From Parcubacteria group bacterium (GTDB lineage: Bacteria; Patescibacteriota; Minisyncoccia; Phycocordibacterales; UBA2135): a stretch of DNA of 64,000 nt. Below, one piece after another: positions 34,739-57,542 of this stretch. The stretch is from contig JACQLQ010000001.1 in NCBI GenBank assembly GCA_016204045.1, forward strand, positions 106,766 to 170,765. Direction: 5' to 3'. The stretch's first letter is position 1. Every line of letters starts with the position of its first letter. The translations under genes were made by a program, and so were the position numbers. The notes under the pieces were generated by a model. The model searched no databases, had not been told where the DNA came from, and saw nothing but the letters and a program-made list of their open reading frames with translations.

Positions 34739-34747
34739 TGACAAAAC

Positions 34748-40038: not shown

Positions 40039-40221
40039 ATGGCAAAAATACTCAATTATCTCAAGGAAACCAAGATGGAAATGCGACACGTATCCTGGCC
40101 AACCAGGAAACAGGTTACGTATTTTACGATTCTCATTATTGTGATTTCACTTTTAACAGCGATTTTTCTCGGCTCCTTTGATGTAGCGTTAACACTACTT
40201 ATAGAGAAGTTTATTCTCTAG
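40039..40221 (+). CDS. secE: preprotein translocase subunit SecE
   Basis: 60 aa with a single transmembrane helix, directly upstream of nusG (conserved order). Confidence 0.75.
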   Translation: MAKILNYLKETKMEMRHVSWPTRKQVTYFTILIIVISLLTAIFLGSFDVALTLLIEKFIL

Positions 40222-40231: not shown

Positions 40232-40777
40232 ATGAGTAGACAGCAACCAACACAAGAGAGAAGCTGGTACGCAATTCATACCTATTCCGGGTACGAAGAT
40301 GCTGTCGCCAGGAACTTAAAACAGCGTATCGAATCCCTCGGCATGGAGGACAAGATTTTTAATGTGGTCGTCCCCAAGGAAAAGAAAATTAAGATCAAGG
40401 GCGGTAAGCGCGTCGAAGAAGAAGAGAAGATTTACCCAGGATATGTCCTCGTCGACATGACGGTTACTGACGATTCGTGGTACGTTGTTCGTAACACGCC
40501 GCGCGTGACCGGGTTCGTTGGCACGGGTGTGTATCCGGTACCGCTTCGCAAGGATGAAGTTGACTTCTTCTTCAAGCAAATGCAAACTGATGTAACGAAG
40601 CACGCCATTGATTTGGGAGTAGGCGAGCCCGTGGTCATCATCGACGGACCATTTAAAGAACAGGAGGGGAAGGTAAGCGAAGTAGACGAAGAGCGCGGCA
40701 AGGTAAAGGTCCTCGTCCCCATTTTCGGACGTGAGACACCCGTTGAACTCGACTTCCTCCAAGTAAAGAAAATCTAG
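40232..40777 (+). CDS. nusG: transcription termination/antitermination factor NusG
   Basis: [14 protein letters not shown] domain and a C-terminal KOW ([18 protein letters not shown]). Confidence 0.85.
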
Positions 40778-40787: not shown

Positions 40788-41210
40788 ATGGCAAAACTTA
40801 CACGTAAACTCAAACTACAACTTCCTGCTGGTGCAGCAACTCCTGCTCCGCCAGTTGGTACGGCATTAGGTCCTGCCGGTATTAACATTGGTGAATTTGT
40901 CACACGCTTTAACCAAGCGACACAGGACAAGAGAGGAAGCATCATTCCCGTAGAGATTTCTGTCTACGACGACCGAAGTTTCGATTTCATCTTAAAGACC
41001 CCTCCCGCTTCTGACCTATTGAAAAAGGCCGCTGGCGTAGAGAAGGGATCTGGCAAGAACACACTCGTTAAGGCAGGCAAAGTCAGCAAGGCGCAAGTTC
41101 GTGCTATTGCAGAAGAAAAAATGTCAGATCTGAACGCAAACGATGTGGATCAGGCGGCAAAAATCATTGCCGGAACAGCACGCTCGATGGGTATTGATGT
41201 AACTGAATAA
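40788..41210 (+). CDS. rplK: 50S ribosomal protein L11
   Basis: [27 protein letters not shown]11 signature. A terminator follows at 41222-41252. Confidence 0.9.
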
Positions 41211-41320
41211 CTTTTTAACAAAACACGGTCCGACGATCGTCGGACCGTGTTTTGTTAAGGCGTTGTCTTTGTCTCAAAGATATAGTACCTTTGCCGTAGA
41301 AATAGTCGCGGGAGCTTACT

Positions 41321-42583
41321 GTGACTACGCGAACGGAAGTGTCAGTGCCAAGGCTAGAGGACTTCAACATCGCTCCTCGATGCGGGTTCCTGCCAGAGCG
41401 AGAGCCGCTCGAATTTTTTCAAGAAGATGGTGCGGGCGGTTACTGGCCATGGGCACGCGGAATTCAAGATGTCGCAAACGTACTCCCGAAACTTTTGACG
41501 ACAAAACATGTGCGCAGGTGTATTGCAGAGGAGGTCGAAGGCAAGTGGTCTTCACGCGATAATGAAAGAATCCTCAAGCTTTCCAAATCCGCCCAGCACT
41601 GCTTAATGCGCGTAGTCTCTTTTGTTGGCAATGCGTGGGTTCATGGTGGCATCATTGATATGTGGGGCAGTAAGGCAGAGGCGCATGTGCCAGAGTGGCT
41701 TGCTCAACCTTGGTGTCTCCTCGCAGAAGAGCTGGGCACTACGCCAACACTTTCATATGCGTGGTACGCGCTTCACAATTGGAAGCTTACCGATCCTTCA
41801 GGTCCGATCTCGCTTGAAAACGTCGTGCTCATCAATAATTTCCTTGGGGGACTCGACGAAGAGGGATTTGTGAAGGTTCATATCGCCGTCGAGGCCGCTT
41901 GGGCCAACCTTCCGCTTGCGACGACGCGTGCTATCAAGGCTGTTTTCGATGACGACCCGAGAGAGCTCGAAGATGCGCTTAAGAGCGTACGAGACGGGCA
42001 AAAAGCTGCTCTTCAAGAAATGGAGAAAATGTGGCAATGGTGTTCGCCAAAAGTGTATTATGACCGCGTGCGCCTTCACATTGCAGGATGGCATAACAAT
42101 CCCGCACTCCCGAATGGTATTGTCTATGAAGGGGTGGAAAAATTTGGAGGGAAGCCGCAGCAATTTGGCGGTGAAACGGGTGCGCAGAGCTCGGGTGTGC
42201 CTCTACAATACGCCTTACTCGGTGTTCAGCACGAGGATGATGCATTCCTCAAGTATCTCCTTGGGATGCGGCAACACATGCCGCGCGAACACCGAATGTT
42301 TATTGAGAAAATAGAAGAAGTGAGTCGATCAGGGCTTTCTATCCGTGAATACGTGCTCGTGCATAGGATTTCGCATCACTCACTCCTCAAGGTGTATCGA
42401 GAGTGCCTCGCCATGCTCGAAGCGTTTCTTGCGCTCCACTACCGGTTTGTTGAGGAATATATTGCTGCGCAGGAGCAAACACTTGCTTTCAACACCACAA
42501 AGTACGGGACCGGGGGCACACACGCGCTTCCGTACCTCATGAAGCACCTTGATCGCATCCGAGTATTAAGGGAGGAAACATAA
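41321..42583 (+). CDS. indoleamine 2,3-dioxygenase-like heme dioxygenase
   Basis: GGETGAQSSGVPLQYALLGV aligns with the IDO GGSAGQSS motif, and MRQHMPREHRMFIEKIEE with the IDO MRxYMPPAHRNF region around the proximal His. About 420 aa. Confidence 0.6.
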   Translation: MTTRTEVSVPRLEDFNIAPRCGFLPEREPLEFFQEDGAGGYWPWARGIQDVANVLPKLLTTKHVRRCIAEEVEGKWSSRDNERILKLSKSAQHCLMRVVSFVGNAWVHGGIIDMWGSKAEAHVPEWLAQPWCLLAEELGTTPTLSYAWYALHNWKLTDPSGPISLENVVLINNFLGGLDEEGFVKVHIAVEAAWANLPLATTRAIKAVFDDDPRELEDALKSVRDGQKAALQEMEKMWQWCSPKVYYDRVRLHIAGWHNNPALPNGIVYEGVEKFGGKPQQFGGETGAQSSGVPLQYALLGVQHEDDAFLKYLLGMRQHMPREHRMFIEKIEEVSRSGLSIREYVLVHRISHHSLLKVYRECLAMLEAFLALHYRFVEEYIAAQEQTLAFNTTKYGTGGTHALPYLMKHLDRIRVLREET

Positions 42584-42800
42584 CCACCGCCCACGGCACA
42601 TCCGTGGGTTTTTTATTGACCACGTACGAAGTCGCGAATGCCAATTACAAAGTGATGCAACACGGCATACACCACCTCCTCCTATTTTTTATCAAGAAAT
42701 TTCTATTTGTCTGTTCGCGTTCTACTTTGTACGTGGTTGACACCGTTATCGCAACTCTATACATTTGAAAAAGAAAAGTAGCAATGAAAAGAGAAAAAAG

Positions 42801-43697
42801 ATGCAACAGTATCTGGATGTCGTCAGAACTGTTTTGACAGAAGGGCAGTGGAAAATGCCGCCGCACGGCATACGTCGTCTCTCCGTCCCGGGGCTTACCA
42901 TGCGTTTCGATTTGGACGAGGGTTTCCCACTCATCACAACTCGCGATGTGAGGGGTTCGTGGAAGGCAATGCGCGCGGAGCTTCTCTGGCTTCTCTCGGG
43001 AAGCACGGATGCGAATGAACTTGCCGAAAGATTCGGCATCAAATTGTGGAAACAATGGGCAACCAAAGAAATTTGCTCGGCGTTTGGTCGTCCGGAAGGG
43101 CAGCTCGGCCCTCTTTACGGGCATCAGTGGCGCAATTTCGGGGCAACAGTAAAGAAGACAACTGCTACCGGACATACGCTTGAATACAATCAAGACGGTT
43201 TTGATCAGATTGCTTACATGATCAAACTCTTGAAGACGAATCCCGATTCGAGCCGCATTCGCGTGAGTGCTTGGAATCCAAGGGATGTTTGGAAAGAACC
43301 AGTGGAAGACTTCAACGAGAACGTATTCATTACCCCGTGCCACGGCACTTTCCAGATTTTTCACGCGCAAGGCGAATTGACGCTCATTCTTACCCAAAAC
43401 AGTGCTGACGTACCAGTCGGCGTTCCTTTCAACATTGCTGAATACGCGCTACTTCTTAAGATGATCGCACATGTGGTTGGGATGAAGGCAAAATGTCTTG
43501 TTCATGTGCTCAATGACGCCCAAATCTACGAGGATCAGATTGATAACATGAAGGAGCTCTTAGGGCGTGAGCCGCTTTCCCTGCCACAGGTGAACATAGT
43601 CCGCGATGTAAAAGACATCTTTTCCTTTGCTCCGGATGATTTCGAGCTCGTGGGGTACAACGCGCGTCCAAAGATGAACATTCCGGTCGCTGTATGA
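42801..43697 (+). CDS. thyA: thymidylate synthase (ThyA, folate-dependent)
   Basis: LGPLYGHQWR and the catalytic Cys in ITPCHGTFQ (PCH). About 298 aa from MQQYLDVV. Confidence 0.85.
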   Translation: MQQYLDVVRTVLTEGQWKMPPHGIRRLSVPGLTMRFDLDEGFPLITTRDVRGSWKAMRAELLWLLSGSTDANELAERFGIKLWKQWATKEICSAFGRPEGQLGPLYGHQWRNFGATVKKTTATGHTLEYNQDGFDQIAYMIKLLKTNPDSSRIRVSAWNPRDVWKEPVEDFNENVFITPCHGTFQIFHAQGELTLILTQNSADVPVGVPFNIAEYALLLKMIAHVVGMKAKCLVHVLNDAQIYEDQIDNMKELLGREPLSLPQVNIVRDVKDIFSFAPDDFELVGYNARPKMNIPVAV

Positions 43698-44149
43698 GCG
43701 AGGCAACACGCGATGCGGTACACATTAATGACTCTTCGCCGAACGAGGATTACAAAAAGGTTCTCCGGAGGATATTGAAAGATGGTGTGTGTCCCTTTTG
43801 CGAAGAGCACTTCAAGTACCATGACGAGGCTATTCTTCATCGGGTTGGCGATTGGGTTATCACCAGGAACCAATATTCGTATAAAAACGCGAAGTTAGCA
43901 CTTCTCATTTTGAATCCAAAGCGGCATCTTGAGAGGTATGAAGAACTTAGCCCCGCGGATCACCTTGCTATCTCAGAGCTCGTCTCTTGGGCAATCCGTG
44001 AGTTCCGTATCGAAGGTGGTGGTGTTGCACTTCGCTTTGGCGAGCCCAAGCACACAGGTGCATCAGTGCGCCATCTGCACGCACACCTCATTGTTCCAGA
44101 GATTGGGAAAGATGGTAAAGCGATCCCAGTGTACTTTCCGTTTGGATAA
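43694..44149 (+). CDS. HIT-family protein (GalT/Ap4A-phosphorylase-like branch)
   Basis: C-terminal HLHAHLIV histidine triad and an N-terminal CPFCEEH zinc-ribbon-like motif. Overlaps the thyA stop by 4 nt. Confidence 0.55.
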   Translation: MSEATRDAVHINDSSPNEDYKKVLRRILKDGVCPFCEEHFKYHDEAILHRVGDWVITRNQYSYKNAKLALLILNPKRHLERYEELSPADHLAISELVSWAIREFRIEGGGVALRFGEPKHTGASVRHLHAHLIVPEIGKDGKAIPVYFPFG

Positions 44150-44194
44150 CAAACATACAACAAAACTCCGTCATTACGACGGAGCTTTTTTAAA

Positions 44195-45046
44195 TCAGAT
44201 AACCTGCACAATCTCGACACCCTGTGAACGCATGACTGTTTCGCCGTCTAAGCTCGCGTGGCCTGAGCCGAAGAAACATTTGGTGATTCCAGAGAATGCA
44301 ATAAACTTTGCACACACTGGGCAAGGAAAGGTGGTCACATAGATGTGTGCTCCCTTGAGCGACACCCCTTCACGCGCGGCGCGGACGATCAAGGCCCACT
44401 CCCCATGTAGTGTTGTGGAGAGGTCGCTTCTCTGCCCTGCCTTAATGTAGTCTCGTGGATCCCCAAGAGCATACGGCATGTGTTCACTTGGAACATGACG
44501 GTTATGTTCCGCAAAGAGGACTGTCTTTCCGGAGACGGCTACTGCCCCCACATGTCTCCACCAGTCGGATGATTTTTCCGCCTCCCCTTTAGCGAGCTCC
44601 ATCATGGAGCGGTCAAATGCGTCATCAGATGTCCTATCGTGCGTGACGACTTTCTGCGAGAAGACAGAAGCCTCATCCCACCTCAAGAATACTTTGTCGA
44701 AGACGGGAGAGGCGTCAGCAAGATATTTTTCGGCGAACTTCCTGGAGATCTCTTCTTGGGGCAATATCACTCTTTTGCCCGCTAAACGCGTTAGTTCGTC
44801 CTTTGTAAGAACGCTGACGTTGGCTAGGAACAACGTGGAAATCAGTACTTTTACAACCGCCGGATTCAGTCCGCGTATCTCGGTATGGAGCGGCATTAAC
44901 TCTCCGACAAAATCTGCCCCAAGGATGAATACTTCACGTCCTCCATCCCCCAGAATCGTACCTGTCACGTTTCTATCGAAGAAATCAACGTACCCCTGAT
45001 GAAGAACAGGTACGTACGCGACGATCGCAATCTTCTTTTCACTCAC
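44195..45046 (-). CDS. dCMP/cytidine deaminase-family protein with a ~150-aa N-terminal extension
   Basis: The C-terminal half has the HAEHN...PCPVCAKFI zinc-binding deaminase motifs (H-A-E / PC-x-x-C). The N-terminal domain is of unknown function. Confidence 0.6.
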   Translation of the reverse strand: MSEKKIAIVAYVPVLHQGYVDFFDRNVTGTILGDGGREVFILGADFVGELMPLHTEIRGLNPAVVKVLISTLFLANVSVLTKDELTRLAGKRVILPQEEISRKFAEKYLADASPVFDKVFLRWDEASVFSQKVVTHDRTSDDAFDRSMMELAKGEAEKSSDWWRHVGAVAVSGKTVLFAEHNRHVPSEHMPYALGDPRDYIKAGQRSDLSTTLHGEWALIVRAAREGVSLKGAHIYVTTFPCPVCAKFIAFSGITKCFFGSGHASLDGETVMRSQGVEIVQVI

Positions 45047-45609
45047 AGCTTGCCCAAAAGTTTGGCAATATTGTTTTTCAGGAGATTGCGGATCATGTCA
45101 GAGGTAGAAGTCTTCGCCTGCCGAGGAAGGACAATAACTTCTTTTGCTCCGTTGGCTTTGATTTCCTGAATCTGCCAGTCGGGGTAGCTGTCTTCCACCG
45201 CGATGAATACATCAGGTTGGACGAGCTTAAGAAGAGCGTATTGCCACTTACCCGCATCATCAACGTCGTCAATCAATGTGACGAGGTCAACGTTCAAGTA
45301 GCACAGAAGCTCCATTCTCTCGTCTTCGGGAACAGCTGGGCGGCCCGGGTCCTTGTATAGTTTCATGGTTCTGTCACTATCTACTCCGGCTATCAGCACG
45401 TCTCCGTGCTCTAACGCGGCCGCTAGGTAGCGTGCGTGGCCGATGTGATACAGATCCCAAGAGCCGATGGTCATGACGATTCTGTGACCCAACATTCGCC
45501 ACACCTCTACAACTTGGCGCACCTTATCGTAATCCAGTACGATCTTTCTGCGAAGATGCTTCACTGTATCGCATACCTGAGGTTCTTCCCGTGTCTCGGT
45601 CGTACTCAC
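45043..45609 (-). CDS. cytidylyltransferase-like nucleotidyltransferase (HxGH class)
   Basis: TIGSWDLYHIGHARYL is the (T/H)xGH nucleotidyltransferase motif. Family-level call only. Confidence 0.5.
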   Translation of the reverse strand: MSTTETREEPQVCDTVKHLRRKIVLDYDKVRQVVEVWRMLGHRIVMTIGSWDLYHIGHARYLAAALEHGDVLIAGVDSDRTMKLYKDPGRPAVPEDERMELLCYLNVDLVTLIDDVDDAGKWQYALLKLVQPDVFIAVEDSYPDWQIQEIKANGAKEVIVLPRQAKTSTSDMIRNLLKNNIAKLLGKL

Positions 45610-46208: not shown

Positions 46209-46437
46209 TCTCGCTCCCTCAACCACACTACGTTCTGTAGTAAGCGTATGGTTTTTTGAAATAAGGTCAAGCCCCCACACCTTTCATGCTGTCGTTGTGC
46301 GGAGGACGATGATGCACTGACCAGTATGGAGCTCCGCAGACCGACGTGGAATATATAATTGTTCCCAAAAACAACAGTCCGCAACAGCACGAAAGGTGTG
46401 GGGTCAAGTTTAGCACCCCAATAGTGTTAGTGGTATT

Positions 46438-48117
46438 ATGGTACTATCGGTTCAAGTCATGATTCAGGAAAAACTTAAAGAGATGATACAAGAAACGTTG
46501 CGTGAACTCGGCATTGAAGCTGGGGACATTCACTTGGAACATCCGACGGAGTTTGTGCATGGAGATTTTGCGACAAACGTCGCTATGTCCGTGGCAAAAA
46601 AGGCAAAAACAAATCCTAAGGCGCTTGCAGAGCAGATTGTCGCAAAGATAAATGAGAGCAAAGATAAAGATATCGAAAAAGTTGAAGTGGCTGGTCCCGG
46701 CTTCATTAATATCCACCTTTCGCCAGCTTTTTTTGCGGACAGCGTTAAAAAAATCGTGGACCAAGGAGATGTGTGGGGCAAGAATGATGCATTTGTGGGA
46801 AAAAAGGTGATGGTGGAATACACAGACCCAAACCCGTTTAAGGAGTTTCATATCGGACACCTCATGTCGAATGCGATTGGAGAATCCATTGCCCGGCTTA
46901 TTGTATTTGGTGGCGCAGAAGTTAAGAGATCAAATTGGCAGGGTGATGTTGGTCCTCATGTTGCGAAAGCTATTTGGGGAAAGATGCAAAAGCCTGAACT
47001 GAAATGGGGCGAGGCGTATACATATGGAGCAGAACACTATGAAGAGCGGAAAGAAGAAATTAATGGGATCAACGAGAGGGTGTATGCCAAAAGCGACCCG
47101 ACGGTTAACGAGTTATATGAAGAAGGCCGCGCCTCTTCGCTCGCACACTTTGAAGAACTCTATAAAATACTGGGGACATCTTTTGATTATTACTTCTTTG
47201 AGGGAAAAGAGGGACTCTTGGGAAAACCAATTGTCGAAGAGTTTCTAAAGAAAGGCATTTTTGAGGAGAGTGACGGAGCGGTCATTTTTAAGGGCGAGCA
47301 ACACGGTCTCCATACACGTGTCTTCGTGACTTCGCGCGGATTGCCGACCTATGAGGCGAAAGAACTCGGGCTCAACAAAGTAAAGTTTGAAAGGGAGCCG
47401 GATTTGGACCTCTCAATTATCGTAACCGCGAACGAGCAAACTGATTACTTCAGAGTGCTGCTTAAAGTGATTGAGCTTATTTTTCCTATTATTGCTGCAA
47501 AGACAAAACACATTGCTCACGGTGTCATGAAACTTGCCTCGGGCAAGATGTCCTCGCGCAAGGGGAACGTGATAACAGGCGAGTCGCTCATCTCCGACGT
47601 GAGAGCATTGGCGCGGGAAAAGGTTCGAGAGGGAAATCGTGCCCAAGACAATACCGAGGCCCTTGCTGAAGCAATAGCAGTTGCCGCGATCAAATACTCG
47701 ATATTGAGACAAGGAACAGGCAGAGACATCGTCTTCGATTTTGAACAATCCCTCTCCTTTGAGGGCGATTCGGGTCCCTATCTCCAATACACCCATGCGC
47801 GGGCGAAATCGATCTTACGTAAAGCAGGAGAACGCGGGACGGTGTCCACCAAGGAAAACAGAGATGTGGGCGAAGTCGAACGACTACTATATCGTTTCTC
47901 AGAAGTTACAGCGCGCGCTGCGAAAGAGTATGAACCGCATTATGTCACGACGTATCTTACAGAACTCGCGGGAGCGTTCAACACTTTCTATGCGAAAGAA
48001 CGTATTTTAGACGCGGGAGAAGATGCGCCCTATCGCTTGCTTTTGACGCAGGCGGTGGCAACGACACTCAAGAATGGTCTCCACCTCCTGGGCATTAAAG
48101 CACCGGAGGTAATGTAA
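46438..48117 (+). CDS. argS: arginyl-tRNA synthetase
   Basis: EYTDPNPFKEFHIGH (HIGH motif) and a C-terminal anticodon-binding domain, about 559 aa. Confidence 0.85.
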   Translation: MVLSVQVMIQEKLKEMIQETLRELGIEAGDIHLEHPTEFVHGDFATNVAMSVAKKAKTNPKALAEQIVAKINESKDKDIEKVEVAGPGFINIHLSPAFFADSVKKIVDQGDVWGKNDAFVGKKVMVEYTDPNPFKEFHIGHLMSNAIGESIARLIVFGGAEVKRSNWQGDVGPHVAKAIWGKMQKPELKWGEAYTYGAEHYEERKEEINGINERVYAKSDPTVNELYEEGRASSLAHFEELYKILGTSFDYYFFEGKEGLLGKPIVEEFLKKGIFEESDGAVIFKGEQHGLHTRVFVTSRGLPTYEAKELGLNKVKFEREPDLDLSIIVTANEQTDYFRVLLKVIELIFPIIAAKTKHIAHGVMKLASGKMSSRKGNVITGESLISDVRALAREKVREGNRAQDNTEALAEAIAVAAIKYSILRQGTGRDIVFDFEQSLSFEGDSGPYLQYTHARAKSILRKAGERGTVSTKENRDVGEVERLLYRFSEVTARAAKEYEPHYVTTYLTELAGAFNTFYAKERILDAGEDAPYRLLLTQAVATTLKNGLHLLGIKAPEVM

Positions 48118-48237
48118 TCCCGATAGTGTTAACACGAGTATAGAGCGTTCGCTCACTTGGGGCGTATACTATTGGGTAGGATGTTTTACAAGGTATGAAA
48201 ATTACGGTCGTGCAAGCACGACCTAACACTATCGGGA
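48118..48237. repeat. inverted-repeat element, copy 1 (arms tcccgatagtgtta / taacactatcggga flanking ~92 bp)
   Basis: 14-15-nt perfect inverted arms starting at the argS stop codon, with an internal hairpin (cgtgcaagcacg). The arms match those of the element at 58444-58565. Confidence 0.55.
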
Positions 48238-48278
48238 TGTAACAGCACACTTGCAAAAAACGGTTCGAGGCCGATAAT

Positions 48279-48602
48279 GTGGAAAGAGGGTACATGGGGG
48301 CGTATATGGCTGATAAGACCCCAGTTGTTAGATTGCAGTGGGGAAGCAACGGATGGGTTGTCGAAGACGTCACGGAGACGTCTCTCGAGGGGGTTATAGC
48401 CATCCTTACTTTTCTCGTAACCAAAGCGCCACGTTTTGTTGCCTCTTATGGGAACATTCGATTTGCAATGGAATCTCCATTCCCCATTGCAGAGAAGATT
48501 CGCTCCGTGCTTATACCCGTTGTAGAAGGGTGGGCTCTTTGGAGGGCGAACGATAGTTGTCGCGACGATCTTATTTTTACTTTTGAGAAAGGGCCCCAGT
48601 AA
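48279..48602 (+). CDS. hypothetical protein (107 aa)
   Basis: ORF between argS and ileS on the same strand. No motif. Confidence 0.35.
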   Translation: MERGYMGAYMADKTPVVRLQWGSNGWVVEDVTETSLEGVIAILTFLVTKAPRFVASYGNIRFAMESPFPIAEKIRSVLIPVVEGWALWRANDSCRDDLIFTFEKGPQ

Positions 48603-48650
48603 GGCCTTTTTTGTTTTTGCATAATGTCTCGAAACTGGTAGTATTTTAAT

Positions 48651-51600
48651 ATGTCGAAGGCAGAAGATTCTCAAAAAAAGAGCATTGCTGACCTCGAAAG
48701 AGGAATACTCCGCTTCTGGAGTGATAACAAGATTTTTGAGAAGTCCCTTGCCAAGAAGTCTCCTAAGGGCGAGTTTACTTTTTATGATGGCCCTCCTTTT
48801 GCGAATGGCTTGCCCCACTACGGTCACATCCTCACTGGTGTTATTAAAGACGCGATACCTCGTTTCCAAACGATGCGTGGCTATCATGTTAACCGTCGCT
48901 GGGGATGGGATTGCCACGGCCTTCCTGTCGAGTATGAGATAGAAAAAGAACTTGGACTCAAGACAAAGCGCGAGATTGAGGAATACGGCATAGAAAACTT
49001 TAACAAAAAAGCCCGCGAGGCAATCATGCGCTATGCGGGTGATTGGCGCCAAATCATCCCAAAAACAGGGCGGTGGGTTGATATGGATCGCGACTACCGT
49101 ACGATGGACTCGTCGTACACCGAATCAGTGTGGTGGGTCTTCAAGTCGCTCTATGATAAGGGACTCGTTTACGAAGGCTTCAAGCCAATGCACCTTTGTC
49201 CTCGCTGTGAGACAACGCTCTCGAACTTCGAGGTGAGCCAGGGATACAAAGACGTGACCGACATTTCTGTGACGGTGAAGCTACCGTTAAAAAAAGAGCC
49301 GGAAACCTCCCTCCTTATTTGGACTACAACGCCGTGGACACTTCCTGGCAATATGGCTGCGGCGGTTAATCCGAGTACCTCATATATCAAATACAAACTT
49401 CTTGATACCGAGGTCCCCGCGGGGGAGTTTGTTATTATCGCCAAAGATCGAGGTGCCGAGATCCTCAGAGATAAGAAGTACGAAATAGTCGAAGAATTTA
49501 CAGGTGACAAACTTGTAGGTCTTTCTTACACCCCACCCTTTGCCTACTACACGGACGCCACACTAAAGCACAAAGGGCATGCATGGAAGGTATACGCAGC
49601 AGACTATGTTACAACGACTGATGGCACTGGAATTGTGCATCTGGCGCCAGCGTTCGGAGAAGATGACCTAAGGCTCGCAAAAGAAAACGACATACCTGTC
49701 GTGCATCATATTGGAACAGACGGAAGATTCAAAAAAGAAGTTACTGACTTTGTCGGTGAAATGGTAAAGCCCATACAGGATTTGCAGGCAACTGACGTGC
49801 TCGTCTTGAAGAACTTATCTCACCGAGGACTTCTTTTCGCAAAAGAGAAGATTACTCACTCGTATCCGCATTGTTGGCGATGCGATACACCGCTTTTGAA
49901 TTACGCCGCAAGTTCATGGTTTGTAAAAGTGACCGCCATCAAAGATGATCTCATAAAAGCAAACAAGAAAGTTTCATGGGTCCCGGAAGATATTCGTGAC
50001 GGTAGGTTTGGAAAATGGCTCGAGGGTGCGCGCGACTGGGCAGTGTCTCGTTCGCGGTTTTGGGGAGCGCCAATCCCCGCATGGAGATGTCAAAAATGTG
50101 AACGCTTAGAGATCGTCGGCTCACTCACTGAACTGCGAGAGAAGAGTGCGGATTCAGGTAATACGTTCTTCATCATGCGGCACGGCGAGGCGCGAAGTAA
50201 CAAAGAAGGATTTGTGAGCGCCTCCATCCATGCAGGCAACCACCTTACGGAAAAAGGCAAAAAAGAAGTTGATAAAGCAGCGAAGTTTCTGCGGAGACAA
50301 AATATCGATCTCATCATTGCCTCTCCACTCGAACGTACCAAAGAGACAGCGCTTCGCACAGCAAAAAACATCGGGCTCAAAAAAGATAAAGTTATCTTCT
50401 CCGACCTCATTCGAGAGGTGGGCGTTGGTGTGTATGAAGGGAGGCCACTTTCAGAATGGCGTTTACAATTCCCTTCATTGGAAGATAAATTTAAAGTGCG
50501 TCCGGATGGTGGCGAGAACCTGCCCGACTTGAAGGGGCGCGTTACATCTTTCCTCTACGAACTTGAGCGTAAATATACAAATAAGAACATTCTTATTGTT
50601 TCCCATGCTGATCCGCTTTGGGCGCTTTACACGGGGGCACTCGGGTACACGGAAAAACAAGCGATTGAAGCGCATGGGAGAAAGAAGGATTTCATAAAAA
50701 CAGCAGAAGTAAAAAAACTTCCTTTTGCACCATTACCGCATGACGAAATGCATGCACTCGATTTGCACCGCCCCTACGTCGACGAGGTGAAGTTTAAATG
50801 TCTCTGTGGAGGGAAAATGAAGCGCGTACCAGAAGTCTTTGACTGCTGGTTTGAGTCTGGCGCAATGCCGTATGGGCAAATGCACTACCCGTTTGAAAAC
50901 AAAGACACCTTCGATCCAGAAAAGAAACGGGGATTTCCTGCGAACTTTATTGCAGAGGGACTTGATCAAACAAGAGGCTGGTTCTACTCACTTATCGTCC
51001 TTGGGGTTGCGCTCTTTGGAGAGAGCCCATACAAAAACGTCATCACCAACGGTCTCGTTCTCGCGGAAGATGGACGAAAGATGTCGAAACGACTCAAGAA
51101 TTACCCTGAGCCAACAGATATTATGGCGAAGTATGGTGCGGATGCATTGCGTCTCTATCTCATCTCATCTCCTGTAGTACGCGCAGAAGATCTTCGCTTT
51201 AGTGAAGATGGTGTTCGAGAAATACAAAACAAAATAGTGAGTCGCCTTCGAAATGTGGCATCTTTTTACCACACGTATGCCCTTGATGCAGTGAAAGGGA
51301 CGAGTGTTCCAAAGTCAAACAACGTTCTGGATACATGGATCCGTGTGCGTCTTACTGAAGTAGTCAACAAGGTCACAGAGGCGATGGAGCACTACGAGCT
51401 TGATAAAGCCATCCGTCCGATTGGCGAATTTATCGAAGATCTATCGACGTGGTATCTCCGAAGATCGCGCGACCGCTTTAAGTCAAAAGACGATCTTGAC
51501 CGCAAGAATGCAATAGCAACGACGAGCTATGTGCTGACAGAAATTGCCAAACTCATTGCTCCGTTTGCGCCTTTTGTTGCCGAAGAAATATATCAATCTA

Positions 51601-52244
51601 TTACCTCCAACATGGAGAGTGTTCACCTCGAAACGTGGCCCAAGTATGAACCTCGTTTCCCAATCTGGCCCAATCCGATGGCGCTTTTTCACCGTATTTT
51701 CAGATCCCATGGTGACATAAAGATTCTCGAAGACATGGCAGAGGTGCGACGCATTGTGTCAGTGGCTCTCGAAGCTCGCGCAAGCGCGGGTATTAAGGTG
51801 CGTCAACCATTAGGGAAACTTACTGTTAAGAACAGTAAGACAAAAATTGCGGGTAATGAAGATCTGCTCACGCTCATTAAGGATGAGGTTAATGTAAAAG
51901 AAGTTATTTTTGACGCCGCTCTTGTTACAGATGTCGCACTAGACACAGAAATTACCGAGGAGCTTAGAGAGGAAGGAGTCCTTCGCGACCTCGTTCGCGT
52001 TGTGCAAGATCTGCGTAAAAAAGAAGGATTGCATCCTGGAGACTCTGCGACGCTCTTTATACGCGGGGGTGTCCAAGAAGTTCAGTTTATCAAGAAGTTT
52101 GAAGAGCAACTTAAAGACTCAACAACCGTCGGCGTCATTGAGTTTCGAGATGATGTACAAGGGGAGGAGGCGAAGATCGACACATTTTTGTTTGCTTTAG
52201 CTCTAAACACTCCGACGCTTTCGGCATCTACTAAAAACGAATAG
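48651..52244 (+). CDS. ileS: isoleucyl-tRNA synthetase with an inserted histidine-phosphatase (PGAM-like) domain
   Basis: PHYGHILTG (HIGH), editing CP1 domain, KMSKRL (KMSKS) and anticodon-binding domain are all present. An extra ~192 aa (nt ~50156-50730) carries IMRHGEARSN (RHGxxxN) and IVSHADPLW (second catalytic His). It lies between the conserved WRCQKCERLE...ELREKSADS and DLHRPYVDE...VFDCWFESG blocks. Confidence 0.8.
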   Translation: MSKAEDSQKKSIADLERGILRFWSDNKIFEKSLAKKSPKGEFTFYDGPPFANGLPHYGHILTGVIKDAIPRFQTMRGYHVNRRWGWDCHGLPVEYEIEKELGLKTKREIEEYGIENFNKKAREAIMRYAGDWRQIIPKTGRWVDMDRDYRTMDSSYTESVWWVFKSLYDKGLVYEGFKPMHLCPRCETTLSNFEVSQGYKDVTDISVTVKLPLKKEPETSLLIWTTTPWTLPGNMAAAVNPSTSYIKYKLLDTEVPAGEFVIIAKDRGAEILRDKKYEIVEEFTGDKLVGLSYTPPFAYYTDATLKHKGHAWKVYAADYVTTTDGTGIVHLAPAFGEDDLRLAKENDIPVVHHIGTDGRFKKEVTDFVGEMVKPIQDLQATDVLVLKNLSHRGLLFAKEKITHSYPHCWRCDTPLLNYAASSWFVKVTAIKDDLIKANKKVSWVPEDIRDGRFGKWLEGARDWAVSRSRFWGAPIPAWRCQKCERLEIVGSLTELREKSADSGNTFFIMRHGEARSNKEGFVSASIHAGNHLTEKGKKEVDKAAKFLRRQNIDLIIASPLERTKETALRTAKNIGLKKDKVIFSDLIREVGVGVYEGRPLSEWRLQFPSLEDKFKVRPDGGENLPDLKGRVTSFLYELERKYTNKNILIVSHADPLWALYTGALGYTEKQAIEAHGRKKDFIKTAEVKKLPFAPLPHDEMHALDLHRPYVDEVKFKCLCGGKMKRVPEVFDCWFESGAMPYGQMHYPFENKDTFDPEKKRGFPANFIAEGLDQTRGWFYSLIVLGVALFGESPYKNVITNGLVLAEDGRKMSKRLKNYPEPTDIMAKYGADALRLYLISSPVVRAEDLRFSEDGVREIQNKIVSRLRNVASFYHTYALDAVKGTSVPKSNNVLDTWIRVRLTEVVNKVTEAMEHYELDKAIRPIGEFIEDLSTWYLRRSRDRFKSKDDLDRKNAIATTSYVLTEIAKLIAPFAPFVAEEIYQSITSNMESVHLETWPKYEPRFPIWPNPMALFHRIFRSHGDIKILEDMAEVRRIVSVALEARASAGIKVRQPLGKLTVKNSKTKIAGNEDLLTLIKDEVNVKEVIFDAALVTDVALDTEITEELREEGVLRDLVRVVQDLRKKEGLHPGDSATLFIRGGVQEVQFIKKFEEQLKDSTTVGVIEFRDDVQGEEAKIDTFLFALALNTPTLSASTKNE

Positions 52245-52248
52245 TCTT

Positions 52249-52836
52249 GTGTATACCATCTTTCACACTGACGCCATTGTGCTTGGGGGTCAAGATCGCG
52301 GTGAAGCAAGCCGCACACTCGCACTTTTTACACGTGAGCACGGGCTCATACATGCCCACACCCAAGGCCTTCGTGAGCTCAAGTCAAAACTGCGCTACGC
52401 ACTACAGGATTTTTCGTGTGCCCACGTTAACCTTGTACACGGCAAAAACGGTTGGAAAGTGACAAGCGCCATCCACAAGCGCTCATTTCTACCTGGGGGT
52501 GAAGAGAAGGCGCGACTAGGGGCTATTGTACGTGTCTCAAAACTTCTACGTCGCTTGCTTCCAGGAGAAGAGAAAAACGAAACGTTATATGACGAGATTC
52601 TTGAGACTTTTTCCGTAATTAAAAACACACCTCTTAGTGCTGAATATGTTTTTAACATCGAAGTAATACTTGTCATGCGCATCCTCGCGCTCCTTGGGTA
52701 TTGGGGCGACGATGCTCGGTTTGCTCCTTTTTTGGAAAAAGGCACAACAAGGGAGGAGTTACTCCAACAAATGATGAATATAAAACCTTTTGCTATTCGC
52801 GAAATCAACAAAGCGCTTAAGGAGACACAATTATAG
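52249..52836 (+). CDS. recO: DNA repair protein RecO-like
   Basis: N-terminal OB-fold pattern (DAIVLGGQDRGEASRTLALFTREHGLI). Shorter than canonical RecO, with no obvious zinc finger. Confidence 0.55.
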   Translation: MYTIFHTDAIVLGGQDRGEASRTLALFTREHGLIHAHTQGLRELKSKLRYALQDFSCAHVNLVHGKNGWKVTSAIHKRSFLPGGEEKARLGAIVRVSKLLRRLLPGEEKNETLYDEILETFSVIKNTPLSAEYVFNIEVILVMRILALLGYWGDDARFAPFLEKGTTREELLQQMMNIKPFAIREINKALKETQL

Positions 52837-54466: not shown

Positions 54467-54877
54467 ATGGCAACAATAAACCAACTGATTAAAAGACCGA
54501 GAAGGACACCAAAGAGAAAGTCCAAAACACCCGCAATCGCGCGTGGTTTCAACACGCTCAAGAACAGGCCGGTCTTTTACCCATCTCCTTTTAAGCGTGG
54601 TGTGTGTGTGCAGGTTCGTACCACAACCCCTCGTAAACCGAACTCTGCGGTCCGAAAGATTGCACGTGTACGCCTTACTAATGGTCAGGAAATTACAGCG
54701 TACATCCCCGGAGAAGGACACAACCTTCAGGAACACTCCGTGGTCCTAGTTCGCGGCGGAAAGGTTAAGGACATCGGCGTTCGCTACACGATCGTTCGCG
54801 GTATTCTTGATGCGGCCGGTGTTGATAAGAGGCGCCAGGCAAGAAGTCTGTACGGCGCGAAGCGTCCCAAGAAATAA
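54467..54877 (+). CDS. rpsL: 30S ribosomal protein S12
   Basis: [12 protein letters not shown]..., KPNSAVRK and [11 protein letters not shown]. Confidence 0.95.
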
Positions 54878-54897
54878 ATCAAAACTCCTAAGTAACA

Positions 54898-55368
54898 ATG
54901 AGGCGTCCAGTAAAAAAACGACATATCGTACCAGCCGATTACAAATACAATTCTCAAAAGATTGAGAAGTTTGTTAACTATGTAATGAAAGACGGCGAAA
55001 AGACCGTTGCAAGGAAAGTCGTATACGGAGCACTCGACGAGATTGCCAAGAAGGTTAAGACAGACAACCCACTTGAGGTGTTTGATAAGGCAATCAAAAA
55101 CATTGGTCCGACAGTCGAGGTGAGAACGCGCCGCATTGGTGGCGCGAACTACCAAGTACCACGCGAGGTCAAAACCGATCGACGTCTCGCGCTTGCTATG
55201 CGCTGGCTTCTTCTCGCCGCGCGTGGCAAGAAAGGGCGCCCCATACACATAAAGCTTGCCGATGAGATTATCGCCGCTTCAAACAACGAAGGTGAGGCGG
55301 TGCAGAAGAAAGCGAATGTTCACAAAATGGCCGAAGCCAACAAGGCGTTTGCCCACTTTACGTGGTAA
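54898..55368 (+). CDS. rpsG: 30S ribosomal protein S7
   Basis: Conserved S7 sequence and the str-operon position. Confidence 0.9.
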   Translation: MRRPVKKRHIVPADYKYNSQKIEKFVNYVMKDGEKTVARKVVYGALDEIAKKVKTDNPLEVFDKAIKNIGPTVEVRTRRIGGANYQVPREVKTDRRLALAMRWLLLAARGKKGRPIHIKLADEIIAASNNEGEAVQKKANVHKMAEANKAFAHFTW

Positions 55369-55397
55369 TTTGAACGGCTTTACGACCGAATATTTTT

Positions 55398-57542
55398 ATG
55401 CAACGCGACTATCCTCTTGAACGAGTTAGAAACTTCGGAATTATCGCACACATTGACGCAGGAAAAACCACCACATCGGAGCGGGTCCTTTTTTATACAG
55501 GGATGACGCACAAGATTGGTGAGGTGCACGAGGGAGATACTGTTACTGACTGGATGGAACAAGAGCGCGAGCGTGGCATTACCATCACAGCCGCCGCTAT
55601 TACGTGTTTTTGGACGAAGACCGACGAGGCAGACAAGAGCATCAACAAGAAGTATCGTTTCAATATCATCGACACTCCCGGTCACATCGACTTTACCGCA
55701 GAAGTGAAGCGTTCTCTTCGTGTGCTGGACGGCGCCGTCGTCGTCTTCGACGGAGTGGCGGGCGTTGAGCCACAATCAGAAACAAACTGGCGTTATGCAG
55801 ACGAAGCGCAGGTGCCCCGTCTCTGTTTCATAAACAAACTCGACCGTACGGGAGCATCTTTCGAAAGATCCTACGCGAGCATTCTTGATCGTTTGAATAA
55901 AAACGCTATACGTATGCAGATTCCGATTGGCGAAGAGAGTGGTTTTGAGGGAGTTGTGGATCTCTTGAAGATGAAGGCATACCACTTTGTGGGGGAAATG
56001 GGGGCAAAAGTCGTTGAAGTCGAGATTCCAGAAAACCTCAAGGCCTCGGCAGAGAAGTTCCGACATGAGCTAGTCGAAAAGATTGCTGGAGAAAACGATG
56101 AGTTAATGAGCGCGTACCTCGAGGGCAAAGAAATTCCCATTGCTGATTTGAAAAAGGTGCTTCGCGAACTGGTTATTAAAAATAAGATTTTTCCAGTGTT
56201 TGTTGGTTCTGCACTTAAAAATAAAGGAGTGCAACTGGTGCTCGATGCCGTTGTCGATTATTTGCCAGGACCTCTCGACATCCCTGCGGTTGTTGGAACT
56301 GATCCGAAAACTGGAGAAAAAATTGAGCGTCACCCTTCCGACGAAGAGCCCTTTACCGCACTTGCTTTCAAATTACAAAGCGATCCGTTTGTTGGCCAGC
56401 TCACATTCTTCCGTGTGTATTCCGGTTCTGTTGAGGCGGGTTCATATATTTACAACTCCACAACTGGTGAAAAAGAGCGCCTCGGCCGTATCGTGCGTCT
56501 CCAGGCAAATGAACGTGAAGAGGTGAAAAAAGTTTTTGCCGGGGAAATTGCCGCAGCCGTCGGGCTCAAAGGCACAAAGACATCTCATACGCTTTGTGAT
56601 GAAAACAACCCTGTTGTTCTTGAAAAAATAGTATTTGCAGAGCCAGTTGTCTCCATGAAGGTTGAACCAAAAACAAAAGCCGACCAGGAACGTCTTGGTA
56701 TGGCGCTCTCGCGACTTGTTGATGAAGACCCGACATTTCGTGTTAAGACAGACACGGAAACACTTGAGACCATTATTTCCGGAATGGGCGAACTCCATTT
56801 GGAAATTCTCGTTGATCGCATGAAGCGCGAGTTTAAGGTCGAGGTAAATGTCGGCGCACCGCAGGTTGCATACCATGAGACAGTTACAACTCTTGCAGAA
56901 GCAGAGTCTAAATACATTCGTCAGACAGGTGGCCGTGGTCAATATGGTCACGTCAAGATTCGCGTTAAGCCGCTTGAGCCAATTGCAGAAGGCGAGAAGA
57001 TCCCAAAGAACGTGAAGCGAGGTGATCATTTCGAATTCGTCAACTCGATTAAGGGAGGTGTTGTTCCACAAGAATATATTGCACCAGTTGAAAAGGGTGT
57101 TAAAGAAGCCATGGAACGAGGCATTTTGGCAGGGTTCCCTGTAGTTGATGTGTCCGTCGATCTTTATGACGGGTCGTACCACGAAGTCGACTCTTCGGAG
57201 CTTGCCTTCAAGATTGCTGGATCCCTCGCATTCCAAGATGCTGCGAAACGCGCAAAGCCGGTACTCTTGGAGCCTATTATGAAGCTTGAGGTAATTGTGC
57301 CGAAGAAGTTCATGGGTGATGTGACTGGAAACTTGAACTCCAAACGAGGTCAGGTCACAGACATGGAGGAACGCGGGGAGCTTCAGGTCATCCACGCGCT
57401 CATTCCTCTTGCAGAAATGTTCGGCTATGTCACCACCCTCCGTTCTATGACCGAGGGCCGAGGCACATCCACGATGGAATTTGAGAAATATGAAATAGTG
57501 CCACGTCACGTTGCCGAGGAAATCATTGCAAAACGAGCGTAA
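55398..57542 (+). CDS. fusA: elongation factor G
   Basis: NFGIIAHIDAGKTTT G-domain and domains II-V. A terminator follows at 57553-57585. Confidence 0.95.
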   Translation: MQRDYPLERVRNFGIIAHIDAGKTTTSERVLFYTGMTHKIGEVHEGDTVTDWMEQERERGITITAAAITCFWTKTDEADKSINKKYRFNIIDTPGHIDFTAEVKRSLRVLDGAVVVFDGVAGVEPQSETNWRYADEAQVPRLCFINKLDRTGASFERSYASILDRLNKNAIRMQIPIGEESGFEGVVDLLKMKAYHFVGEMGAKVVEVEIPENLKASAEKFRHELVEKIAGENDELMSAYLEGKEIPIADLKKVLRELVIKNKIFPVFVGSALKNKGVQLVLDAVVDYLPGPLDIPAVVGTDPKTGEKIERHPSDEEPFTALAFKLQSDPFVGQLTFFRVYSGSVEAGSYIYNSTTGEKERLGRIVRLQANEREEVKKVFAGEIAAAVGLKGTKTSHTLCDENNPVVLEKIVFAEPVVSMKVEPKTKADQERLGMALSRLVDEDPTFRVKTDTETLETIISGMGELHLEILVDRMKREFKVEVNVGAPQVAYHETVTTLAEAESKYIRQTGGRGQYGHVKIRVKPLEPIAEGEKIPKNVKRGDHFEFVNSIKGGVVPQEYIAPVEKGVKEAMERGILAGFPVVDVSVDLYDGSYHEVDSSELAFKIAGSLAFQDAAKRAKPVLLEPIMKLEVIVPKKFMGDVTGNLNSKRGQVTDMEERGELQVIHALIPLAEMFGYVTTLRSMTEGRGTSTMEFEKYEIVPRHVAEEIIAKRA

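What the first reader, a model, noticed from the sequence alone, without database searches (positions are those of the whole stretch)
41321..42583. Indoleamine 2,3-dioxygenase-like gene directly after rplK where rplA-rplJ-rplL-rpoBC normally follow
secE-nusG-rplK is intact, but the next gene is a 420-aa protein with the IDO family motifs (GGETGAQSS; MRQHMPREHRMF around the proximal His). The thymidylate block (thyA, HIT, dCMP deaminase, folA), argS and ileS then follow, and the run resumes with rpsL-rpsG-fusA. rplA, rplJ, rplL, rpoB and rpoC are absent from the window. Bacterial IDO homologs are uncommon, and one at a synteny breakpoint of the most conserved bacterial gene cluster suggests horizontal acquisition plus rearrangement. 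In a reduced genome the gene could provide kynurenine-pathway or NAD-related capability.
Basis: partly seen in the sequence, partly recalled or inferred. Interest (0 to 1): 0.55.

Follow-up and report, generated by a model that had tools for sequence, protein, structure and literature searches.

The report
Tryptophan dioxygenase gene in tiny bacteria
A genuine indoleamine 2,3-dioxygenase (heme, O2-dependent tryptophan-cleaving enzyme) gene sits right after ribosomal gene rplK in a Parcubacteria genome, but it is an old, vertically inherited resident of one sub-lineage, and the 'missing' rplA-rpoC genes are a much older trait of the whole clade, not a consequence of its arrival.

Summary
ORF 41321-42583(+) encodes a 420-aa full-length IDO-family protein (Pfam PF01231, E=2e-63; AlphaFold model matches human IDO1/IDO2, TM 0.8-0.9). 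It follows secE-nusG-rplK, and the window contains no rplA, rplJ, rplL, rpoB or rpoC. One detail is wrong: the proximal heme His is His373 (LALHYRF), not in MRQHMPREHRMF.

The window is a Parcubacteria MAG. In all 65 informative relatives, rplK runs into a variable thymidylate/folate gene island and then argS-ileS, with no L1 or RpoB. So the break is clade-wide and older than the IDO. L1 loss in the 'OD1-L1' Parcubacteria is published.

An IDO in this exact slot occurs in five lineages, including Candidatus Lloydbacteria. These genomes group together on NusG+L11, and their IDOs cluster. The gene has host-like codon usage, housekeeping-like purifying selection, and its own promoter-like box and terminators. 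This indicates one old insertion followed by vertical descent.

Bacterial IDOs are common. The Trp-binding residues are conserved, so the likely reaction is Trp + O2 to N-formylkynurenine. No kynurenine-pathway partner lies nearby, so the physiological role is open. Verdict: new member of a known kind, modest interest.

The parts
40039..40221 (+). secE
   Evidence: Pfam SecE PF00584, E=2e-15
40232..40777 (+). nusG
   Evidence: Pfam NusG + KOW; 74-84% identical in related Parcubacteria
40788..41210 (+). rplK (ribosomal protein L11), last gene of the conserved run
   Evidence: Pfam Ribosomal_L11_N + Ribosomal_L11
41213..41260 (+). Perfect 20-bp inverted repeat (terminator-like hairpin) just after the rplK stop
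   Evidence: hairpins of different sequence occupy the same position in L001, L086, L171 and L173
41280..41303 (+). Conserved 24-nt upstream motif ATATAGTACCTTTGCCGTAGAAAT containing a -10-like TATAGT (41281-41286)
   Evidence: Identical in HY457 (L001) although synonymous sites are saturated. A similar GATATAGT / TGATATTGT box precedes the IDO in L171 and L173. The promoter role is inferred.
41310..41314 (+). Shine-Dalgarno-like GGGAG, 6 nt before the GTG start
   Evidence: read directly from the sequence
41321..42583 (+). IDO-family heme dioxygenase gene (420 aa). Key codons: Tyr146 41756-58, Phe183 41867-69, distal His187 41879-81, Arg251 42071-73, GGETGAQSS 42167-93, Tyr297 42209-11, Leu370 42428-30, proximal His373 42437-39, GTGGT loop 42506-20
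   Evidence: Pfam PF01231 E=2.2e-63; PDB hIDO1 E about 1e-33; AF2 pLDDT 92.5; Foldseek IDO1/IDO2 TM 0.80-0.92; residue mapping
42589..42620 (+). Intrinsic-terminator-like hairpin GCCCACGG-CACAT-CCGTGGG followed by a T-run, 6 nt after the IDO stop
   Evidence: a near-identical terminator follows the IDO in L001, and analogous hairpin + T-run terminators follow it in L086 and L171
42765..46280 (.). Thymidylate/deoxypyrimidine/folate island: thyA 42765-43697(+), HIT 43694-44149(+), dCMP deaminase 44195-45046(-), cytidylyltransferase-like 45043-45609(-), folA 45681-46280(-)
   Evidence: Pfam; homologous but variable islands follow rplK in the relatives sampled
46438..52836 (+). argS 46438-48117, ileS 48651-52244 (with inserted His_Phos_1 domain), recO 52249-52836
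54467..57542 (+). rpsL-rpsG-fusA, where the canonical str operon resumes
   Evidence: Pfam

Best explanation
The gene encodes a functional IDO-family heme dioxygenase. It most likely binds heme b through His373 and uses O2 to open the indole 2,3-bond of L-tryptophan (or a ring-substituted Trp), giving N-formylkynurenine. It is a self-contained transcription unit, with its own -10-like box and SD, and terminator-like hairpins on both sides. It was inserted once, long ago, between rplK and a pre-existing thymidylate/folate gene island in the ancestor of a Lloydbacteria-related Parcubacteria sub-lineage, and has been inherited vertically since. The absence of rplA-rplJ-rplL-rpoB-rpoC after rplK is an older feature of the whole surrounding clade (the L1-less 'OD1-L1' Parcubacteria) and has nothing to do with the IDO. 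Shown: family membership, fold, conserved catalytic and substrate residues, conserved synteny, purifying selection, and the clade-wide break. Inferred: heme loading, Trp as the substrate, the promoter, and the physiological role. My guess for the role is stand-alone oxidative Trp catabolism or O2 consumption in an oxic-groundwater episymbiont, possibly feeding a partial kynurenine pathway encoded elsewhere.
For: Family and fold: Pfam IDO 214.9 bits, full length; hIDO1 E about 1e-33; AF2 pLDDT 92.5 / pTM 0.92; Foldseek TMq 0.80-0.84 and TMt about 0.9 to IDO1/IDO2 over both domains. Catalytic residues: His346=His373, Arg231=Arg251, Phe163=Phe183, Tyr126=Tyr146 and the GTGGT loop Thr379=Thr397 are invariant in 120/120 homologues. 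Selection: pN 0.16 against saturated pS 0.77, the same as tpi and argS. Host-like GC, GC3 and codon usage. Own terminators and -10-like box. Same slot in HY457 (75% id), L086 (35%), Lloydbacteria L171/L172 (38%) and L173 (35%). These five genomes are monophyletic on NusG+L11 among 65 taxa, bootstrap 60%, and their IDOs cluster (Tyr/Leu group of eight 63%, core four 84%). Clade-wide break: 65/65 relatives lack L1/L12/RpoB after rplK (L1 and RpoB probes validated). L1 loss in OD1-L1 is published (PMC5220378; bioRxiv 10.1101/2022.01.07.475337). O2-using enzymes, including KMO, are reported in groundwater Paceibacteria (PMC12577380).
Against: There are no biochemical data. No kynurenine formamidase, kynureninase or KMO lies within the window or near any CPR IDO. 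The Tyr/Leu clade lacks the Asp274-Arg343 pair that anchors a heme propionate in hIDO1, and D274A is inactive there (PMC6072487). However, 43 of 111 diverse family representatives also lack the canonical pair. Parcubacteria are usually regarded as heme auxotrophs and fermenters. Tree support is moderate (48-84% NJ bootstraps; no ML tree). Vertical descent rests on five genomes. Genome-wide absence of rplA, and the location of rplJL-rpoBC in this assembly, could not be checked.
Confidence: 0.7

Rival explanations
1. One reading: a recent horizontal acquisition of IDO caused or accompanied the rearrangement that removed rplA-rpoC from this locus.
For: The IDO sits exactly at the junction. IDO is absent from the 65 informative nearest species-representative genomes sampled. 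One typical bacterial IDO is flanked by transposases. The neighbouring thymidylate cassette has been swapped between sister genomes, so the site is recombinogenic.
Against: The break exists in every IDO-less relative. The IDO is host-like in composition. Orthologues occupy the same slot across genomes that share only about 52% TPI/PGK identity. There are no mobile-element genes next to it in the window.
Confidence: 0.04
2. The Parcubacteria Tyr/Leu-type protein keeps the IDO fold but has a shifted function: an O2-binding or O2-scavenging hemoprotein (as in molluscan IDO-like myoglobins), a sensor, or a dioxygenase for another indole compound.
For: Eight clade-specific substitutions, several of them near the heme (hIDO1 positions 162, 233, 274, 343, 349), including loss of the Asp274-Arg343 propionate clamp (PMC6072487). 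No pathway partners nearby. IDO-like myoglobins are a known precedent (PMC4191572).
Against: All residues that recognise the amino-acid moiety of Trp (Arg251, Thr397 in the GTGGT loop) and the indole pocket (Tyr146, Phe183, distal His187) are invariant. Clamp loss recurs elsewhere in the family.
Confidence: 0.15
3. The IDO is functionally coupled to the adjacent thymidylate/folate island. Trp cleavage yields N-formylkynurenine, its formyl group is released as formate, and the formate feeds the one-carbon pool needed by ThyA/FolA.
For: IDO lies between rplK and thymidylate genes in all five lineages. SHMT, DHFR and ThyA/ThyX populate the island in relatives.
Against: IDO is transcriptionally insulated by terminators on both sides. 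The island exists without IDO in 65 relatives. The sister IDO clade sits in an unrelated murC-dprA-topA slot. No formamidase, fhs or folD is seen nearby.
Confidence: 0.06
4. Assembly or binning artefact: a contaminant fragment joined to a Parcubacteria contig.
For: The genome is a MAG.
Against: The IDO-to-downstream part of the arrangement (IDO-thyA...recO) is reproduced in an independent Logan assembly, and the full rplK-IDO junction in four other genomes from different samples. Composition is host-like.
Confidence: 0.01

Closest known systems
Human IDO1 / IDO2 (PDB 2D0T, 6E46, 9UYY and others)
   Same: Full-length two-domain fold (TM 0.8-0.9, rmsd 2-3 A). Shares the proximal His, Arg231, Phe163, Tyr126, the GTGGT JK-loop and the 260s loop.
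   Different: About 26% identity. His instead of Ser167 on the distal side. GETGAQSS instead of GGSAGQSS. Tyr/Leu instead of the Asp274-Arg343 heme-propionate clamp. No ITIM or signalling context.
Bacterial IDOs (Yuasa, Ushigoe & Ball 2011, cited in PMC4191572); here Fimbriimonadales/Armatimonadota, Nitrospirota, Planctomycetota and similar homologues
   Same: Same family. 38-43% identity. The same invariant distal His and GETGAQSS motif.
   Different: They keep Asp274/Arg343. At least one soil lineage encodes a divergent Cyclase (kynurenine-formamidase family) neighbour. They are not linked to rplK.
Other Parcubacteria IDOs (Candidatus Lloydbacteria P0128; Candidatus Niyogibacteria P0125)
   Same: Lloydbacteria: same rplK-IDO-thymidylate slot and the same Tyr/Leu signature. 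Niyogibacteria type: sister clade.
   Different: 35-39% identity to the window protein. The Niyogibacteria type sits between murC and dprA and keeps Asp/Arg or Asp/Leu.
Tryptophan 2,3-dioxygenase (TDO)
   Same: Same predicted reaction. TDO also has a distal His (own knowledge; PMC5350241 for the mechanism).
   Different: Different family and fold organisation (tetrameric, no small domain). No TDO or any other second Pfam family was reported for the query.
IDO-like myoglobin of abalone / PrnB
   Same: IDO-superfamily scaffold used for a non-canonical role, a precedent for functional drift (PMC4191572).
   Different: No evidence here for loss of the substrate-binding residues. Pfam PrnB (PF08933) does not hit the query.

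Membership tests
IDO family (Pfam PF01231) | Profile HMM score above the curated gathering threshold over the full length | tested here: met
   214.9 bits against 26; residues 12-405 to profile 2-401/412
IDO family (Pfam PF01231) | Two-domain all-helical IDO fold | tested here: met
   AF2 pLDDT 92.5; Foldseek to IDO1/IDO2 TMq 0.80-0.84, TMt about 0.9
IDO family (Pfam PF01231) | Proximal heme-ligand His (hIDO1 His346) | tested here: met
   His373, invariant in 120/120 and 109/111 homologues
IDO family (Pfam PF01231) | Trp carboxylate/ammonium recognition: Arg231 and JK-loop Thr379 (GTGGT) | tested here: met
   Arg251 and Thr397, invariant
IDO family (Pfam PF01231) | Distal pocket aromatic residues Tyr126/Phe163 and the 260s Gly-rich loop | tested here: met
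   Tyr146, Phe183, GGETGAQSS 283-291
IDO family (Pfam PF01231) | Asp274-Arg343 salt bridge holding a heme propionate (hIDO1; PMC6072487) | tested here: not met
   Tyr297 and Leu370. The pair is present in only 68/111 diverse family representatives, so it is not strictly defining
IDO family (Pfam PF01231) | Heme binding and Trp 2,3-dioxygenase activity | not testable with these tools
   Needs recombinant protein, a Soret spectrum and an N-formylkynurenine assay
Kynurenine pathway gene cluster | Co-located kynB (formamidase), kynU (kynureninase) or KMO | tested here: not met
   None in the 64-kb window or in about +/-8-10 kb of the other CPR IDO loci where the contig allows. Genome-wide presence could not be tested
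OD1-L1 Parcubacteria (L1-less clade) | No rplA next to rplK | tested here: met
   True of the window and of 65/65 relatives (L1 probe validated); PMC5220378
OD1-L1 Parcubacteria (L1-less clade) | No rplA anywhere in the genome | not testable with these tools
   Only 64 kb of the 387-kb contig and no other contigs were accessible
TDO (PF03301) / PrnB (PF08933) | Profile match | tested here: not met
   Only PF01231 was reported for the query at E<=0.01

The most novel reading that the evidence does not exclude
The Parcubacteria-specific Tyr/Leu IDO clade, fixed next to rplK for a long evolutionary time in ultra-small episymbionts that must scavenge tryptophan, is not a catabolic housekeeping enzyme. 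It may be a repurposed hemoprotein: (a) an O2-scavenging or O2-binding protein that lets an otherwise fermentative symbiont tolerate oxic groundwater, or (b) a Trp-depleting, kynurenine-producing effector acting on the host cell, analogous to IDO1 in mammalian immunity. Its heme would be stolen from the host and held by a remodelled pocket without the propionate clamp.
Probability: 0.12. Interest if true: 0.65.

Novelty: new member of a known kind. Interest (0 to 1): 0.33.

Why it matters
If the enzyme is active, it adds a heme- and O2-dependent reaction, and a sink for a costly scavenged amino acid, to organisms usually modelled as anaerobic, heme-less fermenters. That fits recent evidence that groundwater CPR are adapted to oxic conditions (PMC12577380). 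It also gives a clean, syntenically anchored marker (rplK-IDO) for a Lloydbacteria-related sub-lineage. Finally, it is a caution that the 'broken' secE-rpoC cluster in these genomes is a stable clade trait (L1 loss plus a deoxypyrimidine island after rplK), not a sign of recent rearrangement.

Tried and rejected
- NCBIfam scan of the IDO: no family.
- Metagenome-contig scan with the sub-clade alignment: no close members, best 42%. It served only to sample the contexts of typical bacterial IDOs.
- Cyclase / kynurenine-formamidase neighbour: found in about 20 of 82 typical loci, but these are 70-99% identical to each other, so effectively one lineage. It is absent from the window and from all 87 CPR loci held at that point.
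- TrpR-like gene beside the Lloydbacteria IDO island: present only in L171, not even in its sister L172, so it is treated as coincidence.
- Asp274/Arg343 loss as evidence of a new function: downgraded after finding that 43/111 diverse family representatives also lack the canonical pair.
- E. coli L1/L12/RpoB probes found nothing in 2.1 Mb of loci, so there was no internal positive control. The L1 and RpoB probes were instead validated against PDB, and Pfam was run on the recurrent unknown ORFs after rplK.
- Locating rplA/rplJL/rpoBC elsewhere in the assembly: not possible.
- Donor identification: the CPR IDOs form a long-branched group sister to the remaining bacterial sequences sampled, with no specific donor lineage.
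- Rfam on the window: only 6 tRNAs, no leader or riboswitch near the IDO.
- Literature searches for IDO in Patescibacteria and for S167H: nothing relevant.
- The sigma-70 scan found no canonical -35/-10 pair upstream of the IDO. The -10-like TATAGT is my own reading.
Full report
**1. The observation**

ORF 41321-42583 (+; GTG start; 420 aa) exists as described. It is a full-length, high-scoring match to Pfam IDO (PF01231): residues 12-405 against profile positions 2-401 of 412, 214.9 bits against a gathering cutoff of 26, E=2.2e-63. phmmer against PDB sequences finds only human IDO1 and IDO2 (E about 1e-33 to 1e-32). An AlphaFold2 model built on 89 homologues is confident (pLDDT 92.5, pTM 0.92). 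Foldseek superposes it on IDO1/IDO2 over both domains, with TM 0.80-0.84 normalised to the query, about 0.9 normalised to IDO1, and rmsd 2-3 A.

Upstream lie secE, nusG and rplK. Downstream lie thyA, a HIT protein, dCMP deaminase, a cytidylyltransferase-like gene, folA, argS, ileS, recO, a hypothetical and an M50 peptidase. Then come rpsL-rpsG-fusA-tuf-rpsJ-rplC-rplD-rplW-rplB.

The Pfam-scanned ORFs, which include nearly all ORFs of at least 150 aa in the window, are none of rplA, rplJ, rplL, rpoB or rpoC. E. coli L1, L7/L12 and RpoB probes give no tblastn hit. The L1 and RpoB probes are genuine and sensitive: against PDB they detect bacterial and archaeal homologues, and RpoB detects eukaryotic ones too.

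**2.

GGETGAQSS (residues 283-291) is the counterpart of hIDO1 260-AGGSAGQSS-268. MRQHMPREHRMF (316-327), however, aligns to hIDO1 MRRYMPPAHRNF, the His303 region. The proximal ligand His346 (RSYHLQIV) aligns to His373 in LALHYRFV.

In a MAFFT alignment with hIDO1 and 120 homologues, the following are invariant: His373, Arg251 (=Arg231, Trp carboxylate), Phe183 (=Phe163), Tyr146 (=Tyr126) and the JK-loop GTGGT with Thr397 (=Thr379, Trp ammonium). The hIDO1 Ser167 position is His in all 120, a TDO-like distal His. This explains why the S167H mutant 6CXU is the top PDB sequence hit.

**3. Whose genome this is, and whether the junction is real**

The protein is identical to 'hypothetical protein HY455_00860' of a Parcubacteria group MAG, on a 387-kb contig. 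An independent Logan assembly of SRR12113383 reproduces IDO-thyA...recO. A second MAG (GCA_016204005.1, HY457_02450) has a 75%-identical IDO in the same secE-nusG-rplK-IDO-thymidylate-argS-ileS-recO arrangement. The junction is therefore not an artefact.

**4. The break after rplK is clade-wide and older than the IDO**

I used the window's NusG to fetch 80 loci from GTDB species representatives: Taylorbacteria, Zambryskibacteria, Nomurabacteria and Paceibacterota, with NusG 74-80% identical.

- In every locus with sequence after rplK (65 with at least 1.5 kb), rplK is followed by thymidylate/folate genes and/or argS-ileS.
- None has an L1, L12 or RpoB hit within 10 kb, and none has an IDO.
- The recurrent unidentified ORFs after rplK are Dcd, SHMT, Tmk, DHFR, ComEB-type dCMP deaminase, ThyX, nucleoside deoxyribosyltransferase, CYTH and a ThyA-pterin-binding fusion. 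There is no Ribosomal_L1 among them.

So this clade carries a variable deoxypyrimidine/folate island where rplA-rpoC sits in other bacteria. The literature states that a large Parcubacteria group, 'OD1-L1', lacks L1 altogether (PMC5220378, citing Brown et al. 2015; bioRxiv 10.1101/2022.01.07.475337). I could not check genome-wide absence of rplA or find rplJL-rpoBC in this assembly.

**5. The IDO is an old, vertically inherited insertion in one sub-lineage**

Profile searches recovered further Parcubacteria IDOs. Their contexts:

- P0062 (35% identity; L086): tpi-pgk-HIT-secE-nusG-rplK-IDO-thyA-tmk.
- P0128 (Candidatus Lloydbacteria, on 23 contigs; L171/L172): nusG-rplK-IDO-thyX-dcd-tmk-argS-ileS.
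- P0123 (L173): secE-nusG-(PDDEXK)-rplK-IDO-CTPtr-dCMPdeam-x-folA-thyA-tmk-argS-ileS.

Against the window, these genomes have NusG 81-84%, L11 71-73%, TPI/PGK 51-55%, ArgRS 52-56% and IDO 35-38% identity. In an NJ tree of NusG+L11 (65 taxa), the five IDO-bearing genomes are monophyletic, with 60% bootstrap support.

In the IDO tree their proteins group together: the core four at 84%, and the group of eight sharing Tyr274/Leu343 at 63%. A sister group has 98% support: Niyogibacteria P0125, P0049, P0124 and P0132. Where context could be checked (P0125, P0049, P0132), it occupies a different conserved slot, murC-IDO-dprA-topA-relA-parB. Monophyly of all 12 Parcubacteria-type IDOs is weakly supported at 48%.

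Between HY455 and HY457, synonymous sites are saturated (pS 0.77). The IDO's pN of 0.16 equals that of tpi (0.16) and argS (0.14). GC (0.52), GC3 and codon usage are typical of the window's genes. No donor lineage can be named: all non-CPR relatives are about equally distant at 38-43%.

**6. The transcription unit**

- A perfect 20-bp hairpin follows the rplK stop (41213-41260).
- A GGGAG lies 6 nt before the GTG start.
- A hairpin plus T-run terminator follows the IDO stop (42589-42620).
- Terminator-like hairpins follow rplK in L001, L086, L171 and L173, and a hairpin plus T-run follows the IDO in L001, L086 and L171.
- A 24-nt stretch containing TATAGT (41280-41303) is identical in HY457 despite synonymous saturation, and similar boxes precede the IDO in L171 and L173.

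The gene therefore appears monocistronic and insulated from both the rplK operon and the thymidylate island. The promoter assignment is inferred.

**7. Function**

All residues that bind the heme iron, the indole and the amino-acid moiety of Trp are conserved. The best-supported chemistry is ferrous-heme/O2 cleavage of L-Trp to N-formylkynurenine (mechanism: PMC5350241).

The clade has eight signature substitutions. The most notable are Asp274 to Tyr297 and Arg343 to Leu370. In hIDO1 this salt-bridged pair positions Arg343 on a heme propionate, and D274A abolishes activity (PMC6072487). The sister clade shows intermediate states (Asp/Arg, Asp/Leu), which suggests stepwise loss. However, among 111 diverse family representatives only 68 keep Asp/Arg. 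The change is therefore a clade marker more than proof of altered function.

No kynurenine-pathway partner (Cyclase/KynB, kynureninase, KMO) lies in the window or around any CPR IDO. In typical bacteria, one soil lineage has a divergent Cyclase-family neighbour.

A 2025 study reports O2-utilising enzymes in groundwater CPR MAGs. These include KMO in two Paceibacteria MAGs, Trp-metabolism genes, and some NAD and heme biosynthesis genes. It also reports fast growth of Lloydbacteria in oxic incubations (PMC12577380). This makes an O2-dependent IDO plausible in this lineage. Its physiological role (partial kynurenine pathway, O2 consumption or something else) remains open.

**8. Comparison and novelty**

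Bacterial IDOs are known and numerous (PMC4191572). Here there are 3,200 clusters with E<=1e-5 and 3,480 50%-identity representatives with E<=1e-3. The window protein is a divergent member of that family. It belongs to a small Parcubacteria-specific Tyr/Leu clade of 5 representatives at 50% identity.

I found no paper in the held library that mentions IDO in Parcubacteria or Patescibacteria genomes.

Verdict: a real feature and a new member of a known kind. The 'synteny breakpoint' is explained by known biology of the clade. Interest is modest (0.33). What remains intriguing is why heme- and Trp-scavenging ultra-small bacteria have conserved this enzyme at a fixed locus.

Noticed in passing
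window 48651-52244 (insertion at about 50106-50765): IleRS (1197 aa) carries a histidine-phosphatase (His_Phos_1, RHGE motif at residue 510) domain inserted in the middle of the catalytic domain. The insertion is clade-wide: homologous segments of 31-44% identity occur within ileS in more than 20 related Parcubacteria loci.
   Followed up: partly
window 42765-45609 versus L001 11400-14912: The four-gene thymidylate cassette (thyA, HIT, dCMP deaminase, cytidylyltransferase-like) is inverted and only 29-40% identical between HY455 and HY457. Flanking genes are 72-99% identical (NusG 99, L11 92, folA 72, ArgRS 77, IleRS 85). This looks like a cassette replacement by recombination with another Parcubacterium.
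   Followed up: partly
L006-L085, first 5 kb after rplK: Across the Taylorbacteria/Zambryskibacteria/Paceibacterota relatives sampled, rplK is followed by a variable deoxypyrimidine/folate island (Dcd, SHMT, Tmk, DHFR, ComEB, ThyA or ThyX, deoxyribosyltransferase, CYTH, ThyA-PterinBD-MtrA fusion) in place of rplA-rplJ-rplL-rpoBC.
   Followed up: yes
L004 10001-11287; L170 8001-9212; L174 406-1698: A second conserved Parcubacteria IDO locus: (PGM-TrpRS/TyrRS-like-RNaseJ-SBP-secG-)murC-IDO-dprA-topA-relA-parB, in Candidatus Niyogibacteria and relatives. These IDOs keep Asp274, with Arg or Leu at position 343.
   Followed up: partly
L001 12939-13919 (-): DHFR and the HIT protein are fused into one 326-aa ORF in HY457 but are separate genes in the window.
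   Followed up: no
L171 12802-13245: A Trp_repressor-family (PF01371) gene sits inside the island, four genes downstream of the Lloydbacteria IDO. It is absent from the sister contig L172 and from all other CPR loci, so it is probably coincidental.
   Followed up: yes
L173 3100-3504: A PDDEXK_3 nuclease-family gene is inserted between nusG and rplK in one IDO-bearing genome.
   Followed up: no
L088 2434-6347; L147 and about 20 similar loci: Typical non-CPR IDOs: one is flanked by two transposases next to UbiD/cupin genes. One widespread soil lineage has a divergent Cyclase (kynurenine-formamidase family) gene upstream. About 20 loci have a B12-binding radical-SAM gene within 4 kb of the IDO.
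   Followed up: partly
window 25645-30115 and 33163-36046: A run of large ORFs with no Pfam match (375, 277, 239 and 465 aa) lies upstream of the T2SS/type IV pilus ATPase and platform genes (30190-33157). Small pilin-like ORFs and a 432-aa secreted-looking protein follow. This is probably a CPR pilus or surface module.
   Followed up: no
window 57637-58381: Two small ORFs (119 and 132 aa) without Pfam hits are inserted between fusA and tuf in the str operon.
   Followed up: no
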